Source: Mustelus asterias | Lineage: Eukaryota | Direction: 5' to 3' | DNA: 64,000 nt | Assembly (NCBI RefSeq): GCF_964213995.1 | Contig: NW_027590554.1 | Location: forward strand, 124,001 to 188,000 | Shown: positions 37,224-60,972 of the stretch, piece after piece | Layout: each line of letters starts with the position of its first letter | Numbering within the stretch: position 1 is the stretch's first letter | Translations under genes and position numbers: made by a program | The notes under the pieces: generated by a model | Seen by the model: only the letters and a program-made list of their open reading frames with translations | What the model was told of the DNA's origin: nothing | Databases searched by the model: none

Positions 37224-39695
37224 AACATAGAACATAGAACATAGAACATTACAGCGCAGAACAGGCCCTTCGGCCCACGATGTTGCACCGACCAGTTAAA
37301 AAAAAAAACTGTGACCCTCCAACCTAAACCAATTTCTTTTCGTCCATGAACCTATCTACGGATCTCTTAAACGCCCCCAAACTAGGCGCATTTACTACTG
37401 ATGCTGGCAGGGCATTCCAATCCCTCACCACCCTCTGGGTAAAGAACCTACCCCTGACATCGGTTCTATAACTACCCCCCCTCAATTTAAAGCCATGCCC
37501 CCTCGTGCTGGATTTCTCCATCAGAGGAAAAAGGCTATCACTATCCACCCTATCTAAACCTCTAATCATCTTATATTTTTCAATAAGATCCCCTCTTAGC
37601 CTCCGCCTTTCCAGCGAAAACAATCCCAAATCCCTCAGCCTCTCCTCATAGGATCTCCCCTCCATACCAGGCAACATCCTGGTAAACCTCCTCTGCACCC
37701 TCTCCAAAGCCTCCACATCCTTCCTGTAATGTGGGGACCAGAACTGCACACAGTACTCCAAGTGCGGCCGCACCAGAGTTGTGTACAGTTGCAACATAAC
37801 GCTACGACTCCTAAATTCAATCCCCCTACCAATAAACGCCAAGACACCATATGCCTTCTTAACAACCTTATCTACTTGATTCCCAACTTTCAGGGATCTA
37901 TGCACACATACACCTAGATCCCTCTGCTCCTCCACACTATTCAAAGTCCTCCCGTTAGCCCTATACTCAACACATCTGTTATTCCTACCAAAGTGAATTA
38001 CCTCACACTTCTCCGCATTAAACTCCATCCGCCACCTCTCGGCCCAACTTTGCAACCTGTCTAAGTCTTCCTGCAAACTACGACACCCTTCCTCACTGTC
38101 TACCACACCACCGACTTTGGTGTCATCAGCAAATTTGCTAATCCACCCAACTATACCCTCATCCAGATCATTAATAAATATTACAAACAGCAGTGGCCCC
38201 AAAACAGATCCCTGAGGTACACCACTTGTAACCGCACTCCATGATGAATATTTACTATCAACCACCACCCTCTGTTTCCTATCCGCTAGCCAATTCCTGA
38301 TCCAATTTCCTAGATCACCCCCAATCCCATACATCTGCATTTTCTGCAGAAGCCTACCATGGTGAACCTTATCAAACGCCTTACTAAAATCCATATATAC
38401 CACGTCCACTGCCTTGCCCCCATCCACCTCCTTGGTCACTTTCTCAAAAAACTCAATAAGGTTAGTAAGGCACGACCTACCTGCCACAAAACCATGCTGA
38501 CTATCACCTATCAATTCATTACTCTCCAAATAACTATAAATCCTATCCCTTATAATTTTTTCCAACATCTTGCCGACAACAGAAGTGAGACTCACCGGTC
38601 TATAATTCCCGGGGAAGTCTCTGTTCCCCTTCTTAAACAATGGGACAACATTCGCTAACCTCCAATCCTCTGGTACTACACCAGAGGCCAACGACGACCT
38701 GAAGATCAGAGCCAGAGGCTCTGCAATCACTTCTCTTGCCTCCCAGAGAATCCTTGGATAAATCCCATCCGGACCAGGGGATTTATCTATTTTCAGACCC
38801 TCCAGAATATCCTGCACATCCTCCTTATCAACTGTAATACTGTCTATTCTACTCCCTTGCAACCCAGTGTCCTCCTCAGCTATATTCATGTCCCCTTGCG
38901 TGAACACCGAAGAGAAATATTGGTTCAATGCTTCACCAATCTCCTCCGGTTCCACACATAACTTCCCTCTGCCATCTATAACTGGCCCTAAACTTGCCCT
39001 AACCAACCTTCTGTTCTTGACATACCTATAGAACGCCTTAGGATTCTCTTTAACCCTATCCGCCAAAGTCTTCTCATGTCCCCTTTTAGCCCTTCTAAGC
39101 TCGCTCTTCAACTCCCTCTTAGCCAATCTAAAGCTTTCTAGTGCACTACCCGAGTGCTCACGTCTCATCCGAACATAAGCCTCCTTTTTCTTTTTAACCA
39201 ACAAAGAAACTTTTTTGGTGCACCACGGTTCCCTAGCCCTACCAATTCCTCCTTGCCTGACAGGGACATACCTATCACAGACTCGCAGTAGCTGCTCCTT
39301 GAAAAAACTCCACATGTCGGACGTTCCCAGTCCCTGTAATCTCCTAGTCCAACCTATGTTTCCTAATTCTCTCCTAATAGCCTCATAATTACCCTTCCCC
39401 CAGCTAAAACCACTGGCCCGAGGTTCATGCCTATCCCTTTCCATCACTAAGGTGAACGTAACCGAATTGTGGTCACTATCACCAAAATGCACACCAACTT
39501 CCAAGTCTAGCACCTGGTCTGGCTCATTTCCCAGCACCAGATCCAATATAGCCTCACCTCTAGTTGGCCTGTCTACATACTGAGTCAAAAAACCTTCCTG
39601 CACGCTTTGAACAAAAACTGACCCCTCTAACGAGCTAGAGCTATAACAATTCCAGTCAATATTAGTCAAGTTAAAATCCCCCATAACAATTGCCC
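37224..39695 (-). mobile_element. Young 5'-truncated CR1 LINE, open ORF2 (endonuclease end plus RT, 786 aa)
   Basis: MGDFN, LDLVL and SDHN (APE end) plus a full RT; (tgttcta)n tail. Confidence 0.97.
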
Positions 39696-40031
39696 TAGGA
39701 AACTAGAAAGGGCGAGGACGAATGAACAAACTGTCTCGTGATGGGATGTAAGGCAATAGTGATGGAATGACAATGGGGAAGATTAATGTCTACACTGACG
39801 CAATCTCCCAGATCTGGATGCAAATCTCACTCTAAATGAGAAGAAAACTTCTCGCTGAATTATGCACGAAACTCCTCGCCTTCCAGTGAAGATGAGGCAG
39901 TTCTCAGTCATAAACCATAAACTTTAAGATTAACAGTGGGATGGAGAAAGACTCAGTTTGAGCGGTGACAGCACCAGAGGAATGGAAAACTGTCGTTCAC
40001 CCAGGAAAAGGGCAAAGTTTAAACAGAGCTG

Positions 40032-40990: not shown

Positions 40991-41393
40991 ACCCCAATAC
41001 ATATCACTTACTAGATGAAGGCGCAGCGCTCTGAAAAATTGTGATAACAAAAAAAACCCTATTGGACTTTAGCTTGGTGTTCTGAGACCTCTAATGTGCC
41101 CACACCTGTTCAACGTCATATCTGCACATCATGGCTATACACACGTCATCTTTCTGAACCCACAGGCATGGGTTCCTCTGAATTGGCGAATCGAGATAAA
41201 GTGAATATCCACAAACATCTTTTAAAGATGTCTTGATTTATTTGTGAGCATGTTATGTTGTTAGAATCCCTGCAGCGTGTGCTCGGATTCTCAAACCAAA
41301 CCCCATGTAAACCAATCCTGCCGTGTGCACGGGAAATAAGTTAACAAACCCAACGGTTCGTTCACAAACCCTATCGCAAACAATAGCTAAATG

Positions 41394-41471
41394 AGGACTT
41401 GTTCGGGACCTCTTGCGACTTTGTGGATCTTAATACCCAAAGCCAGAATGGTACCCCCAGACCTACGAGCC
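41394..41471 (-). tRNA. Intron-containing tRNA-Pro(TGG) pseudogene (T arm deleted)
   Basis: Reverse complement GGCTCGTAGGTCTGGGGGTACCATTCTGGCTTTGGG-[tattaagatccacaaagt]-CGCAAGAGGTCCCG. Confidence 0.75.
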
Positions 41472-43576
41472 ACCGTGAGGAAAGCAGTTTAGGCATTACA
41501 TTCCCATTGCCATCAAAATCTGATCAGACATCTGCAGTGAAAGTGAAAGTGCTGAAAAAAGGCGGGAAGTCAGGACTCTTGTGTGCACAGGGAAAGAAAG
41601 TTCCATTTTTCACCTCCGTGACGTGTAATTTAAACTGGAAATGGTTAGAAATGTACGACGTTTTAAACAAGTGACATCCAGGAGGGAAGAAACATAACAA
41701 CAGCTGATGAGGTGGAAGTCAGGAGAGATTAGATGGGAGACACAAAAAAAAAATCACAAAGTGATTCCACCATAGAATGAGGCCAGTCCAAAGTTCTTTA
41801 CAGGAGTCAAGGGCTAAAGGGGAACCTGTGGATGTGCTGTACATAGATTGCACAGCTGTCACATTGATGTGGTTGTGGGTTTTGAAAATTGACAATTACA
41901 CTTAAGAACATAGGAACTAAGATCAGAAGTAGGCAAATACAGCTCTTCGAGCCTGCATTCAATCAGTTCATGACTGATCTCTCCCTGGTCACAAATCTAC
42001 GTCCCCACCTGTTCTCTTTCTTGAAAACGTTTAAAGATTCAGAATCCACCATGCTATGGGGCAGGAAATTTCACAAATCCACGACTGTCAGCAATACGTG
42101 GTTACTCAGCATCTCGGTTTTACGTCCACCGCCTCTCAACCTATATATGAAACACTAGCTCTGACAAAATGTCATCTCGACTCGAAATATTGGCTCTATC
42201 CTTTCCCCACAGAGGCTGTCAGACCAGCTGAGATTTTCCAGCTTTTCCTGGGGGGGTTTTCAGAGTCCAGCACCCACAGTATCTTGCTTTAATATACATG
42301 TGACCTCTTCTTCTCGATTGCCCGAAAAGATGAAACATTTGGTCTACATTTATTCGATCAATTCTTTTACAATTTTATATACCTCGATCACTTCAGCATC
42401 TGGTGGGACGATTTCACTCACTGTCAATTTCTTGTCCCAGCGAACTTAATTGGTGTCCTCACTGGCTGAAGGAAGTACCTATGTTCCATACAAACAGGAC
42501 ACTTTGAAGGAGAAACTTCGATCGAGTGAAAACGATCAGGGATGAAAATAATAAGCAAAGGGATATAATTCGAAATCCTCAGTTCACCAGTTACCCTGGT
42601 AGTCCACTGGTTTGTGTTTAGCACTCTCCCAATGATATTTGGTTTCAACTCTCGCTCAAGAAGAAAATATTCTCAGCAAACGATTAAAAATAAGGTGATT
42701 TACTCTTTGATCGAAAGCAGATCTACTAGAATCAGCCGAGTGAGGATTGTACGTTTACATCAGAGCTGGAAATGTCACATGTTCAACAGTTCAAGAACAA
42801 ACACAGAAAGAGAAGGGCAGTGATGGTCTGCAAAGCACGAGCAATAGAGATGGTGATGCAAGGGAAAGTCTGGATTATGAATTGCCAAATTTTTACCGAT
42901 TACACTGTCAGCGAAATATGAAATTTTTCCCTCTGCATTGAAAAACATTTGGAAATGTTTCTGTCCAGTTCTGAACCGTCGGAAGCGAAAGTGTTAACTG
43001 CAGTGTATTGATTGCTGTGTGTTTTCATTGGCTGAATACATCACTGTGTTGAAGCAGAATGTGCCATTTTGCAGGAAAAACTTGTTTGTGGTGAAAGTAT
43101 GAAAATAAAAATAACAAAGGTAGCGTGGATAAAGCAAATTCTAAAACACACTGTAAACTGCTGCTCTGGGGGTTAGAGATTGACATTTTCACTGATGTTT
43201 TGATTGCTGGTCAGTAAATGAAGATTTATTCCTCGCATCCAAACCGTGAAAACAGATGTCAGTTATTGCCTGGTGGAACATATCAAACACAATCTCGCCT
43301 CGTGTCCGGAAGTGAAGACTTCCAACAGGAAGTTTTCTTGTCATTTATGTCAGGAGTTTGGGAAACAGACGAGGCTAAGGACAGTTTAAATGGTGCCGGG
43401 CCTTTATTGCAGCTCATTGTGTTTCTGACTGGAGATGATTTCTGTTTGTTGAACAGTTCAGGATGAGTTGACTCAGTGAAGGTGCAGGCTCCTGACGGCC
43501 TTTCCCAAATCAGTTGCATCCAATGTATTTCAGTAACAATATCAGCAAATTGCAGGATTAGCATGATTATTTTTCT

Positions 43577-43664
43577 GCTCCCGTAGCCGAACGGTCTAAG
43601 GCGCTGGATTAAGCCTTCAGTTTCTGAGGCGGTGTGAGTTTGAGTCTGAATCCCACCGCTGCCA
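43577..43664 (+). tRNA. tRNA-Leu(AAG) pseudogene
   Basis: gtagccgaacggtctaaggcgctggattaagccttcagt...gaatcccaccgctgcca. Confidence 0.8.
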
Positions 43665-43936
43665 GAGTCAATTTAAGTTTTGGTCCTTTCGGCAGAATTC
43701 TAACAGCTCGGATATGTTTCCTCCCTGCTGGATTTCACTTGTTTTAAACTTCCTACATTTCTAACCATTCCCAATGTTAATGAAAAGTCTTGGAGGTGAA
43801 AGGTGAGCTTTGTTTCCTGTGCACACTCTGTATTACTTCCTGAGATTTTTCCAGCATTATCACCGTTCAATGCAGGTGTATGATCCGCTTTGGATGGCAG
43901 TGAAAATATATTTAGTTGACTTGCATTGATCACGAT

Positions 43937-44025
43937 TGCTATTTCGCCTAGGGGTATGATTCTCGCTTTGGGTGCTAAAATCCGCAAGCCTGCGTGAGGT
44001 CCCAGTTCAAATTCTGGGTAAGCCC
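43937..44025 (+). tRNA. Intron-containing tRNA-Pro(TGG), probably a pseudogene
   Basis: CTAGGGGTATGATTCTCGCTTTGGG-[tgctaaaatccgcaagcc, 43973-43990]-TGCGTGAGGTCCCAGTTCAAATTCTGGGTAAGCCC. Confidence 0.82.
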
Positions 44026-44865
44026 TCATTAAGCTGTCGTTTCGCATTGGAGAAGAGGAGGATTTTGTTAGTTTATTTCCCGTGCACATGGCAGGATTGG
44101 TTTACATGGGGTATGATTTGAGAACCTGAGCAGACAATGCAGGGATTCTGTCAGCACAACACACTCACAAAGAATCAAGACATTTTCAAAAGGTGACTAT
44201 GCTTTCGGACATTCACTTAATCCTTATTCACCAACTCAGAGGACCACATTCTTCTGGTTTCAGACAGCTGTTTTGTGTTTATTCGATTCTGCCGCACTCT
44301 CTGTCCCTCTCCGTGTCTTTTTTGTTGCTGTATACCTGTCTCAGGCTCTTTCACTCTCTGTCTCTCTGTCAGTTCATCAATCACTGTTCCCCCTTTTGCT
44401 CGATAATCCCTTTATTCTTTCGTTGTCTGTGTTCAATCAAGGTTCACTGGATTGATTTCTGTGATGATGCGGTTGTCCTGGGAGGAGAGATTCAGTGGAA
44501 TGAATCTGTTTGCTCTGTAGATTAGAATAATGAGAGGTGATCGGATTGGAAAGCCTGAAAATGGGGAGACAGTTTGACTTCGGACACACTGAAACGCTCT
44601 TTCCCCAAGTGGTTGGAATATTCAGATCAAAAATATGAAGGTGAAAAATATCAGACTGTTTGTGCAATGTTTGAAAAGAGGTGAAGCTAAGAAGTGGAAG
44701 ATGTGAATGAAGTTATTGATGATCGAGGGGAATGCATTGTAACCTCAGGGATTCCGTAGATTGACTAGTTATAAACTTTGTAATCAGAACAAGCTGAGAC
44801 ACCAGATGGAAACGCTTTATTTGCCTCCACACATTTTTGGATATGGAGTGCTGGGGCCCACATGT

Positions 44866-56424: not shown

Positions 56425-57263
56425 AGTTGGAGACTTGGGGGGAGAGATGGCAGATGGAGTTTCGTCCGGACAAATGTGAGGTAATGCATTTTGGAAGGTC
56501 CAATACAGATAGGAAATATACAGTAAATGGCAGAACCCTTCGGAGTATTGATAGGCAAAGGGATCTGGGTGTACAGGTACACATGTCACTGAAAGTGCCA
56601 ATGCAGGTGGGGAAGGTAGTCAAGAAGGCAGACGGCATGATTGCCTTCATCGGCCGAGGTATTGAGTTAAAAAATTGGAAAGTCATGTTGACGCTTTATT
56701 GAACCTTAGTGAAGCTGCACTTGGAATATGGTGTTCAGTTCTGGTCGCCGCACGACCAGAAGGATGTGGAGGCTTTGGAGAGGGTACAGAAAAGATTTAC
56801 CAGGATGTTGCCAGGTATGGAGGGCATTAGCTATGAGGAGAGTTTGGAGAAACTTGGTTTGTTCTTACTGGAGCGAAGGAGATTGAGGGGAGATCTGATA
56901 GAAGTCAACAAGATTATGAGAGGCATGGACAGAGTGGATAGTCAGGAGCTTCTTTCCCAGGGTGGAAGAGTCAATTACTAGGGGGCATAGGTTTAAGGTG
57001 CGAGAAGCAATTTTTAAAAGAGACGCACAAGGCAGGGTTTTTACACAGAGAGTGGTGGGTGCCTGGAACTTGTTGCCGGGGGAGATAGTGGAAGCGGATA
57101 CGGTAGTGACTTTTAAGGGGCGTCTTGACAAGTACATGAATGAGATGGGAATAGAGGGATATGGTTCCCGGAAACGTAGGGGTTTTTAGTTAAGTTGGGT
57201 AGCATGGTCGGTGCAGGCCGGGAGGGCCGAAGGGCCTGTTCCTGTGCTGTAGTTTTCTTTGTT
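56425..57263 (+). mobile_element. CR1 3' fragment, degenerate
   Basis: WQMEFRPDKCEVMHFG...; its tail continues after 58478. Confidence 0.92.
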
Positions 57264-57264
57264 G

Positions 57265-58478
57265 ACAAAGAACAAAGAACAATACAGCACAGGAACAGGC
57301 CCTTCGGCCCTCCAAGCCCGTGCCGCTCCCTGGTCCAAACTAGACCATTCTTTTGTATCCCTCCATTCCCACTCCGTTCATATGGCTGTCTAGATAAGTC
57401 TTAAACGTTCCCAGTGTGTCCGCCTCCACCACCTTGCCTGGCAGCGCATTCCAGGCCCCAACCACCCTCTGTGTAAAATATGTCCTTCTGATATCTGTGA
57501 TAAACCTCTCCCCCCCCCCCCCCGCCCCTTCACCTTGAACCTATGACCCCTCGTGAACGTCACCACCGACCTGGGGAAAAGCTTCCCACCGTTCACCCTA
57601 TCTATGCCTTTCATAATTTTATATACCTCTATTAAGTCTCCCCTCATCCTCCGTCTTTCCAGGGAGAACAACCCCAGTTTACCCAATCTCTCCTCATAAC
57701 TAAGCCCCTCCATACCAGGCAACATCCTGGTAAACCTCCTCTGTACTCTCTCCAAAGCCTCCACGCCCTTCTGGTCCTGTGGCGGTCAGAACTGGACGCA
57801 GTATTCCAAATGCGGCCGAACCAACGTTCTATACATCTGCAACATCAGACCCCAACTTTTATACTCTATGCCCCGTGCTATAAAGGCAAGGATGCCATAT
57901 GCCTTCTTCACCACCCTTTCCACCTGTGACGTCACCTTCAAGGATCTGTGGACTTGCACACCCAGGTCCCTCTGCATATCTATACCCTTTATGGTTCTGC
58001 CATTTATCGTGGAGCTCCTCCCTACATTATTTCTACCAAAATGTATCACTTGGCAGTGATCAGGATTGAACTCCATCTGCCATTTCTTTGCCCAAATTTC
58101 CAGCCTATCTATATCTTTCTGTAGCTTCTGACAATGCTCCTCACTATCTGCAAGTCCTGCCAATTTTGTGTCGTCCGCAAACTTACTGATCACCCCAGTT
58201 ACACCTTCTTCCAGATCGTTTATATAAATCACAAACAGCAGAGGTCCCAATACAGAGCCCTGCGGAACACCACTAGTCACAGGCCTCCAGCCGGAAAAAG
58301 ACACTTCCACTACCACCCTCTGTCTTCTGTGACCAAGCCAGTTCTCCACCCATCTAGCCACCTCCCCCCTTATCCCATAAGATCCAACCTTTTTCACCAG
58401 CCTACCATGAGGGACTTTGTCAAACGCTTTACTAAAGTCCATATAGACGACATCCATGGCCCTTCCTTCGTCAACCTT
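57265..58478 (-). mobile_element. CR1 3' fragment inserted into the tail of the preceding CR1
   Basis: VDEGRAMDVVYMDFSKAFDKV...KFADDTKL; (ttctttg)n tail. Confidence 0.95.
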
Positions 58479-59780: not shown

Positions 59781-60093
59781 TTGTTTTGTTTATATATCCA
59801 ATTCAATCCACTCAAAGTCCAATTCAAAGCCTCAGCAAGTGAGACATTCCCGATCCAAGCTGACGACAGATGGTTCCCACGTCCTGTCTTGGGCTTGATC
59901 TACATGGTCCAAGCTAATTGGAGCAGGCATTGCACCTCCTCCAAGGCTTGATCTCATTTGCATTTTAGCCAAAAGGCCGATATGCCGCTTTAAAAAATTG
60001 CTTATAATGAAGCTACATTGTAACCTTATGACTTCAACCAAGTAGAGCATGTCGACACTACACTTGATCTTAGCCAAAAGGCCGATAAGCGAT
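59781..60093 (-). mobile_element. U2 snRNA-headed SINE-like element, unit A
   Basis: Reverse complement starts ATCGCTTATCGGCCTTTTGGCTAAGATCAAGTGTAGTGTC (U2 nt 1-40), then a non-U2 body and an A-rich tail; GAGGAGAAT on both sides. Confidence 0.8.
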
Positions 60094-60102
60094 GAGGAGA
60101 AT

Positions 60103-60637
60103 TTTTTAAAATGTTTTTTTATTCCAATTCAAATGTTTACGCAGAGAGTGGTTGGGGTGTGGAATGGACTGCCTGCAGTGATAGTGAGTCAGACACTTTA
60201 GAAACATTCAAGCGGTTATTGGATAGGCACATGGAGCACACCAGGATGATAGGGAGTGGGATAGCTTGATCTTGGTTTCAGATAAAGCTCGGCACAACAT
60301 CGTGGGCCGAAGGGCCTGTTCTGTGCTGTACTGTTCTATGTTCTATGTTCTAAATCAAGTCCAATTCAGAGTCACAACAAATTGAGACATTCCCGATCCA
60401 AGCTGACAAGACAGGGCTCTCCCCTCCCGTCTTGGGCCTGAACTACATGATCCAAGCTGATTGGAGGAGGCATAGCTCCTCCTCCAAGGCTTGATCTCAT
60501 TTGTATCTTAGCCAAATGTCCGAGATGCCGCTTTTAAAAATTGCTTATAATTAAGCTATAATGTAACCTTATGACTTCCACCAAGTACAGCATGTCGATA
60601 CTAACACTTGATCTTAGCCAAAAGGCCGAGAAGCGAT
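60103..60637 (-). mobile_element. U2 snRNA-headed SINE-like element, unit B (interrupted by a CR1 3' end at ~60135-60351)
   Basis: Reverse complement starts ATCGCTTCTCGGCCTTTTGGCTAAGATCAAGTGTTAGTATC; same body as unit A. Confidence 0.8.
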
Positions 60638-60646
60638 GAAGAGAAT

Positions 60647-60972
60647 TTTAAAAAACATACTTTTCCAGTTCAATCAAATGAAGTCCAATTCAGAATGTCA
60701 ACAATTTGAGGCATTCCCGATCCAAGCTGACAAGACAGGGTCTGCAACCCCTGTCTTGGGCCTGATCTACATGAGCCAAGCTGATTGGAGTGGGCGCAGG
60801 TCTTCCTCCTCCAAAGCTTGATCTCATGTGCATCTTAGCCAAAATTCCGGGATGCCGCTTTAAAAAAATGCTTCATATGAAAATGAAGCTTAAATGTGAC
60901 CTAACGACCTCAACCAAGTGCAGCATCCTATCCATACTACACTTGATCTTAGCCAAAAGGCCGAGAAGCGAT
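60647..60972 (-). mobile_element. U2 snRNA-headed SINE-like element, unit C
   Basis: 60972-60934 is a perfect U2 nt 1-39: ATCGCTTCTCGGCCTTTTGGCTAAGATCAAGTGTAGTAT. Confidence 0.8.

What the first reader, a model, noticed from the sequence alone, without database searches (positions are those of the whole stretch)
41394..44025. tRNA-Pro(UGG) genes with an 18-nt intron at the canonical 37/38 position
Seen: both copies have an 18-nt insert right after G37 (tattaagatccacaaagt and tgctaaaatccgcaagcc). Each contains CCA or CCG able to pair with the UGG anticodon, and a purine third from the end able to pair with U32, as in true TSEN substrates. Known: standard vertebrate intron-containing tRNAs are Tyr-GTA, Ile-TAT, Leu-CAA and Arg-TCT, while Pro-TGG introns are familiar from yeast. 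Inference: this lineage has or had an intron-containing Pro-TGG family.
Basis: partly seen in the sequence, partly recalled or inferred. Interest (0 to 1): 0.7.

Follow-up and report, generated by a model that had tools for sequence, protein, structure and literature searches.

The report
Shark proline tRNA genes carry introns
The two broken genes in this window belong to a family of about 200 proline-tRNA gene copies in a shark genome that carry a short intron, which is likely cut out by the standard tRNA-splicing enzyme and was likely gained in the shark lineage, whereas the papers I read give animals such introns only in tyrosine, isoleucine, leucine and one arginine tRNA.

Summary
Confirmed, and larger than proposed. 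Both window copies are decayed tRNA-Pro(UGG) genes with an 18-nt insert after G37, but they belong to a genome-wide family. There are 170 exact matches with 18-nt inserts and 44 with 8-17 nt, in all three Pro anticodons, against 10 intronless junctions. Of 100 genes with a perfect 3' exon, 92 have an intron. Exons stay about 97% identical while introns and flanks diverge to near background. The intron's 3' end pairs with positions 32-35 (201 of 216 pairs; slid controls 64-117), and base -5 follows the wobble base. Genomic fossils support function: intron-bearing copies fused to a SINE look like retroposed transcripts, and one intronless copy keeps the trailer of an intron-bearing family, as a precisely spliced transcript would. 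tRNA-Arg(UCG) also has introns (27 of 30). Against: the 32 pairs are weak (U-A, U-G, U-U), 30 of 92 genes lack a nearby T4 terminator, and I have no RNA data and no test in other species. [quoted passage not shown] Verdict: new variant of a known kind; the window copies themselves are pseudogenes.

The parts
41436..41471 (-). 5' exon of decayed tRNA-Pro(UGG) copy 1, ending at G37; 5 changes from the intact gene
41418..41435 (-). 18-nt intron of copy 1; bases -3 to -6 can pair with positions 32-35
41395..41417 (-). 3' exon remnant of copy 1 with a 13-nt deletion of the T-loop/B box (pseudogene)
   Evidence: sequence read against the intronless gene L064
43937..43972 (+). 5' exon of decayed tRNA-Pro(UGG) copy 2; 5 changes, acceptor stem broken
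43973..43990 (+). 18-nt intron of copy 2, related to the intact family of L019/L035
43991..44025 (+). 3' exon of copy 2 with substitutions and a 1-nt deletion; 14 places in the genome (this one included) match this decayed copy at 95-100%
41136..41696 (-). duplicated cassette around copy 1, 72% identical to the cassette of copy 2 and about 70% to intact intron-bearing cassettes elsewhere
43713..44281 (+). duplicated cassette around copy 2 (inverted partner of 41136-41696)

Best explanation
The two window copies are dead members of a large family of shark tRNA-Pro genes, covering all three anticodons, whose short intron between positions 37 and 38 is likely removed by the standard tRNA splicing endonuclease and was likely gained in the shark lineage. 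Shown: intron position, family size, intact exons, a conserved 4-base-pair match between positions 32-35 and intron bases -3 to -6 leaving a 3-nt bulge at the 3' splice site, and tracking of the wobble base by intron base -5. Inferred from genomic fossils: RNA polymerase III transcribes the genes (lone copies with a few bases of leader, intron, trailer, then a SINE), and the intron is removed exactly (one intronless copy with the leader and 43-nt trailer of an intron-bearing family, fused to a LINE fragment). Inferred from known biochemistry: TSEN measures from the tRNA body and cuts at both sites, RtcB joins the exons, and the product is the same tRNA that the 8 or so intronless genes make. 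Inferred by parsimony: gain rather than retention, followed by amplification in tRNA gene clusters with birth and death of copies.
For: Family size: 170 exact matches with an 18-nt insert, control 0; 79 of them AGG or CGG; 44 with 8-17 nt, control 0; 10 intronless junctions. Census: 92 of the 100 listed (of 109) genes with a perfect 3' exon have an intron; 57 of the 92 also have a 5' exon identical to the intronless gene apart from base 34, 24 differ by one base. Selection: 5' exon identity 0.96-0.99 in every flank-identity bin, while intron identity falls from 0.92 to 0.45 (shuffled baseline 0.35). Helix: 201 of 216 pairs in 54 distinct near-intact introns against 64-117 for seven slid registers; base 34 pairs with -5 in 47 of 54 (U-A 18, U-G 4, A-U 21, C-G 4), shuffle mean 24.7, maximum 38; by family 10 of 13 pair, 1 is mixed, 2 do not. 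Dosage: one Lys-CTT variant has 73 exact copies, mostly on the same cluster contigs. Fossil transcripts: 12 of 20 lone copies on large contigs have a SINE start just downstream against 1 of 107 cluster genes. Fossil splicing: L061 aligns to intron-bearing genes with one exact 18-nt gap, shares their trailer (score 28-30.5; median 3; best intronless trailer 4.5) and runs into a LINE fragment. One tRNA endonuclease domain match over the Pfam cut-off.
Against: The pair at position 32 is weak: U-A or U-G, and U-U in 18 Pro-CGG genes. In a fly tRNA-Tyr reporter U-A lowered splicing and U-G gave almost none (PMC6614914 section 20), though that reporter's helix is otherwise weak. 30 of 92 intact genes have no T4 run within 40 nt, against 0 of 8 intronless ones. 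Decayed copies keep the helix almost as well (64 of 76), so it shows inherited design more than present function. The shuffle ignores relatedness. The spliced fossil is one case among 15 intronless copies examined and lies 5.5 Mb from an intronless cluster, so conversion or a template switch could explain it. The roughly 8 intronless genes left about as many retrocopies as the roughly 200 intron-bearing ones, which suggests they are more active per gene. Copy counts include unplaced contigs; the 92 collapse to 71 distinct. Minimum-energy folds did not recover the short helix. No RNA evidence; no test in a second species.
Confidence: 0.8

Rival explanations
1. The intron-bearing copies are amplified passengers that are silent or poorly spliced; the 8 or so intronless genes supply nearly all proline tRNA, and exons are kept alike by gene conversion.
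For: Weak 32 pairs that impair splicing in a fly reporter; 30 of 92 lack a near T4 terminator; decayed copies are amplified too (14 near-identical copies of window copy 2); most fossil transcripts of intron-bearing genes still hold the intron; intronless genes are over-represented among retrocopies.
Against: Exons stay near-identical across at least four multi-copy cassette families whose upstream flanks do not align; conversion would have to stop at both ends of each 36-nt exon and spare the intron; compensatory pairs at 34:-5; the precisely intronless copy L061.
Confidence: 0.13
2. As to origin only: the Pro intron is ancient, was present in the ancestor of jawed vertebrates in part of the gene family, and was lost in bony vertebrates.
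For: Introns of different anticodon families are diverged to 0.39-0.43 identity, near the 0.35 baseline, so the family is old; Pro introns are common in non-animal eukaryotes (126 metagenome genes; yeast Pro-UGG, PMC4090602 passage).
Against: [quoted passage not shown]
Confidence: 0.2
3. The insert is a single chance insertion in a pseudogene that was then duplicated.
For: Both window copies are decayed and lie in one inverted duplication.
Against: More than 200 matches in three anticodons, intact exons, several unrelated cassettes, conserved helix.
Confidence: 0.01

Closest known systems
Metazoan TSEN-spliced tRNA introns: Tyr-GUA, Ile-UAU, Leu-CAA, and Arg-UCU in human (PMC12530127, PMC10275265, passages)
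   Same: Single short intron at 37/38, anticodon-intron pair at 32:-3, 3-nt bulge at the 3' splice site; mixture of intron-bearing and intronless genes as for human Arg-UCU (5 of 6) and Leu-CAA (5 of 7).
   Different: Isotype is Pro, in all three anticodons; the pair at 32 starts from U, whereas all 16 fly intron genes have C-G (PMC6614914 section 20); about 200 gene copies.
Yeast tRNA-Pro(UGG) intron (PMC4090602 passage) and the non-animal Pro introns in metagenomes
   Same: Same isotype and position.
   Different: Exons differ from the shark ones by 5 or more bases in all 126 metagenome genes; no sign of descent from them was found; fungi ligate with Trl1, vertebrates with RtcB (PMC4090602 passages).
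Archaeal bulge-helix-bulge introns (PMC4090602 passage)
   Same: 4-bp helix that includes the first two anticodon bases.
   Different: I did not test for the second flanking helix of a full BHB; the shark motif is described here only as BHB-like.
[quoted passage not shown]
   Same: Same lineage, same kind of gene, clustered loci.
   Different: The text names no isotype (0 hits for proline, tRNA-Pro, Pro) and gives no structure or splicing evidence. Figure 3A and the supplements could not be seen and may hold more.
Lineage-specific intron gains in yeasts, e.g. Ala-UGC in Lachancea thermotolerans (PMC4090602 section 18)
   Same: Intron in an isotype whose relatives lack it, with near-identical mature sequence.
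   Different: Vertebrate; at least two isotypes (Pro, Arg-UCG); intronless genes of the same mature sequence coexist, which that review calls unusual.
U6-L1 type chimeric retrocopies (recalled, no call)
   Same: A small Pol III transcript fused 5' of a retroelement.
   Different: Here the captured RNAs are pre-tRNAs, with or without the intron, fused to a shark SINE or LINE.

Membership tests
Canonical eukaryotic (TSEN-spliced) tRNA intron | Single intron between positions 37 and 38 | tested here: met
   25 of 92 introns cannot slide either way; the rest are compatible; ARAGORN with introns places it there in intact genes
Canonical eukaryotic (TSEN-spliced) tRNA intron | Short length (6-133 nt, PMC4090602 section 5) | tested here: met
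   10-18 nt; lengths above 18 were not searched by pattern, and none occurred among the 100 census genes
Canonical eukaryotic (TSEN-spliced) tRNA intron | Intact mature tRNA body with A and B boxes | tested here: met
   Met by the family: 57 of 92 have exons equal to the intronless gene apart from base 34. Not met by the two window copies
Canonical eukaryotic (TSEN-spliced) tRNA intron | Anticodon-intron pair between 32 and intron base -3 | tested here: met
   Purine at -3 in 152 of 170; the 18 exceptions are one Pro-CGG family with U-U. Pairs are U-A or U-G, weaker than the usual C-G
Canonical eukaryotic (TSEN-spliced) tRNA intron | BHB-like short helix with 3-nt bulge at the 3' splice site | tested here: met
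   201 of 216 pairs at 32-35, only 9 of 54 at 36; slid registers 64-117
Canonical eukaryotic (TSEN-spliced) tRNA intron | Pol III terminator behind the gene | tested here: inconclusive
   T4 within 40 nt in 62 of 92 intron-bearing and 8 of 8 intronless genes
Canonical eukaryotic (TSEN-spliced) tRNA intron | Splicing endonuclease encoded in the genome | tested here: inconclusive
   One match to PF01974 over the cut-off, model positions 1-32 only; other subunits and RtcB not searched
Canonical eukaryotic (TSEN-spliced) tRNA intron | Precise removal shown in RNA or by the enzyme | not testable with these tools
   No read-level result was obtained. Indirect only: one precisely intronless retrocopy, L061
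tRNA-derived SINE | Interspersed copies with unrelated flanks and a retroelement tail | tested here: not met
   Cluster genes share long flanks (23 of 25 controls match 48 nt or more upstream) and 1 of 107 has a SINE behind it; only the lone copies are retroposed chimeras
Spliceosomal or self-splicing (group I/II) intron | GT-AG ends with branch site, or a large folded ribozyme core | tested here: not met
   10-18 nt with variable first and last bases

The most novel reading that the evidence does not exclude
Sharks went through their own wave of tRNA intron gain: all three proline tRNAs and tRNA-Arg(UCG) acquired working introns, these genes then filled the large tRNA clusters so that about nine in ten intact Pro genes depend on splicing, and shark TSEN handles weak U32-based pairs that fly and human reporters splice badly. 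The genome also preserves its own spliced and unspliced pre-tRNA intermediates as SINE and LINE chimeras.
Probability: 0.45. Interest if true: 0.75.

Novelty: new variant of a known kind. Interest (0 to 1): 0.62.

Why it matters
The set of intron-bearing tRNAs in animals is treated as small and fixed, and how a eukaryotic tRNA gene gains an intron is an open question (PMC4090602 section 18). A vertebrate lineage with introns in four extra anticodons, dozens of diverged intron variants, and intronless twins of identical mature sequence offers a natural experiment on intron gain, on which features TSEN needs, and on whether introns mark a separately regulated class of tRNA genes. [quoted passage not shown] It is a practical trap: without intron mode ARAGORN called three intact genes tRNA-Gln.

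Tried and rejected
Sequencing runs: no RNA holder listed; 7 of 20 listed runs, from three coded organisms in two studies, held 0.30-0.48 of the words of a Pro-CGG locus, but no run was laid on the gene, so it is open whether they hold the intron; not used as evidence. Minimum-energy folding: z-scores -0.2 to -2.5, short helix not recovered, two of five references offset by 1-2 bases; uninformative. Rfam and default ARAGORN miss both window copies. CCA/CCG pairing with the anticodon triplet: rejected as out of register. Target-site duplication around L061: nothing longer than 7 nt. Further spliced retrocopies: none among 14 other intronless copies; L497 has a 4-nt remnant, an imprecise loss. 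Translation of the endonuclease exon was out of frame and not repeated. Rows dropped: L068 from the helix count (register ambiguous); L253 and L256 did not parse; 9 of 109 places were not listed; 48 of 78 Arg-TCG places were not fetched. Literature: ten searches found no paper naming Pro or Arg-UCG introns in a vertebrate; two searches returned nothing. Schmidt and Matera 2020 is not held; the tRNAscan-SE 2.0 supplement (one file, cut) has no shark entry; supplements of PMC12530127 and of the bioRxiv preprint could not be seen; GtRNAdb and RefSeq annotations cannot be queried here and may already list these genes. Earlier scan notes: nothing relevant.

Full report
Observation. The window is G000:C522:124001-188000 of a 3.68-Gb genome. 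It holds many decayed tRNA genes and U2 copies. Both Pro copies and their 18-nt inserts are as described. Copy 1 (41395-41471, minus) has lost the T-loop/B box by a 13-nt deletion; copy 2 (43937-44025, plus) has a broken acceptor stem. They form an inverted duplication at 72% identity, and copy 2 has 14 near-identical places in the genome. Both are pseudogenes. The lineage is shark: all 119 named hits among the best 120 for the receptor ORF at 24215-25240 are shark proteins.

The family. Searching with copy 2 led to intact genes, such as L019, whose exons equal the genome's intronless Pro genes. A pattern for anticodon arm, 18 free bases and 3' arm gave 170 exact matches, control 0; 79 have AGG or CGG (56 and 23 by my count of the list). 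Inserts of 8-17 nt gave 44 more for TGG and AGG, control 0. Only 10 exact intronless junctions exist. An intron-blind census used the perfect 3' exon: 109 places, 100 listed and examined, 92 with introns of 13, 17 or 18 nt and 8 without. Fifty-seven of the 92 have an identical 5' exon apart from base 34. The 92 collapse to 71 distinct units, and unplaced contigs may inflate the counts. For scale, one Lys-CTT variant has 73 exact copies, mostly on the same cluster contigs, and the 12 fetched are intronless where called.

Selection. The 5' exon was not used to pick these genes. Its pairwise identity is 0.96-0.99 in every bin of flank identity, down to unalignable flanks, while intron identity falls from 0.92 to 0.45. 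Flank clustering gives at least four multi-copy cassettes and several singletons (downstream links there are confounded by a SINE). This is the pattern expected if the spliced product is under selection.

Splice-site anatomy. Among 54 distinct near-intact anticodon-intron combinations, positions 32-35 pair with intron bases -3 to -6 in 201 of 216 cases; seven slid registers give 64-117; position 36 pairs in 9 of 54. That is the 4-bp helix and 3-nt bulge described for BHB and BHB-like sites (PMC4090602 passages; PMC6614914 passages). Base -5 follows the wobble base: U-A 18, U-G 4, A-U 21, C-G 4, unpaired 7; shuffled labels give 24.7 on average and at most 38. The shuffle ignores relatedness; by family the count is 10 paired, 1 mixed, 2 unpaired of 13. 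Decayed copies keep 64 of 76 pairs, so the helix shows design, not current activity.

Points against. The pair at 32 is U-A or U-G, and U-U in 18 CGG genes. In a fly Tyr reporter U-A reduced splicing and U-G nearly abolished it; all 16 fly intron genes have C-G (PMC6614914 section 20). Thirty of 92 genes lack a T4 run within 40 nt. No RNA evidence was obtained.

Fossil transcripts. Of 22 lone intron-bearing copies on large contigs, 20 parsed; 12 have the start of the common SINE just downstream, against 1 of 107 cluster genes. The four with a close cluster relative (intron identity 0.83 or more) share only 3-14 nt of upstream sequence with it, against 48 nt or more for 23 of 25 cluster controls. 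I read these as retroposed pre-tRNAs (leader to terminator) fused to a SINE, which implies transcription in the germ line. One intronless copy, L061, has a 4-nt leader and 43-nt trailer matching an intron-bearing TGG family, aligns to it with one exact 18-nt gap at 37/38, and continues into a 5'-truncated LINE fragment of about 1.26 kb with reverse-transcriptase motifs (the CR1 label and the likeness to U6-L1 chimeras are recalled). The simplest reading is a spliced, end-unprocessed pre-tRNA. It is a single case of 15 intronless copies examined, and it lies 5.5 Mb from an intronless cluster, so conversion or a template switch is not excluded. The other intronless retrocopies mostly trace to the roughly 8 intronless source genes and tend to lie near them; those few genes left about as many fossils as the whole intron-bearing family.

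A second isotype. In 200 kb of cluster DNA, tRNA-Arg(UCG) also carried an intron. Of 78 places, the first 30 were fetched: 27 have 16-20-nt introns, all with G at -3 opposite C32; 1 is intronless; 2 lack a 3' exon. Standard Arg-UCU intron genes lie in the same clusters.

Mechanism. Shown: structure, numbers, conservation. Inferred: Pol III transcription and precise splicing (fossils), TSEN cleavage and RtcB ligation (established vertebrate pathway; one endonuclease-domain exon found), gain in the shark lineage (parsimony from the reported metazoan set; no outgroup tested), birth and death in clusters.

What is known. [quoted passage not shown] Ten searches found no report of vertebrate Pro or Arg-UCG introns, but subscription papers, GtRNAdb and genome annotations were out of reach, and automatic annotations probably hold these genes already. 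Also seen, passages only and with no bearing on novelty: PMC8450103, PMC10485636, PMC6847341.

Verdict. A real feature and a new variant of a known kind. Probability that the family yields spliced tRNA: 0.8. Interest 0.62.

Noticed in passing
L372:941-1034, L375, L380 and L381-L410 (G000 C85 and related contigs): tRNA-Arg(UCG) genes with 16-20-nt introns at 37/38: 27 of 30 fetched loci (of 78), all with G at -3 opposite C32. A second isotype outside the reported animal set.
   Followed up: partly
L061:1476-2850 (G000:C3, 136.70 Mb): Intronless Pro-TGG copy with the trailer of an intron-bearing family, fused to a truncated LINE; about 330 bases upstream lies an inverted partial duplicate that starts at the 3' exon, unexplained.
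   Followed up: partly
L070, L254, L074, L248-L257; L472, L474-L476, L480, L491-L495: Many pre-tRNA-SINE and pre-tRNA-LINE chimeras; those from intronless genes tend to lie within a few Mb of their source gene. L475 joins a Pro copy to what looks like a Leu tRNA start.
   Followed up: partly
L411-L440 versus Pro-AGG introns: Arg-UCU introns are also 18 nt and mostly end in the same four bases before the last two as Pro-AGG introns, although only the Pro anticodon pairs with all four; a possible trace of intron transfer between isotypes, untested.
   Followed up: no
L259-L274 (13-nt Pro-TGG family): Introns and upstream flanks resemble 14-nt AGG-type copies, suggesting an anticodon switch; 3 of 6 variants have G at -5, which restores pairing with U34. 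L302/L333 show a TGG-to-CGG switch without compensation.
   Followed up: partly
window 24215-25240 (-): 342-codon open frame for a 7-transmembrane receptor of the GPR139-like family that is expanded in sharks (best hits 65-71% identical).
   Followed up: partly
window 59902-60972 (-): Three tandem decayed U2 snRNA copies.
   Followed up: no
window 31112-56147: Decayed tRNA genes for Gln, Lys, His, Thr and others in duplicated cassettes; several LINE reverse-transcriptase fragments, the longest open frame at 37327-39702 (-); a hairpin at 57191-57342 from an inverted LINE pair that weakly matches miRNA models.
   Followed up: no
L113:c893-964 region (G000:C4, 147.25 Mb): Intronless Pro-TGG variant with a compensated change in the anticodon stem, about 900 bases from an intronless Pro-AGG gene; I recall a similar pair in human, not checked.
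   Followed up: no
Within bins of high flank identity the intron is more diverged than the flanks (0.92 vs 0.98; 0.68 vs 0.80), which may reflect raised mutation in transcribed genes or only the binning.
   Followed up: no
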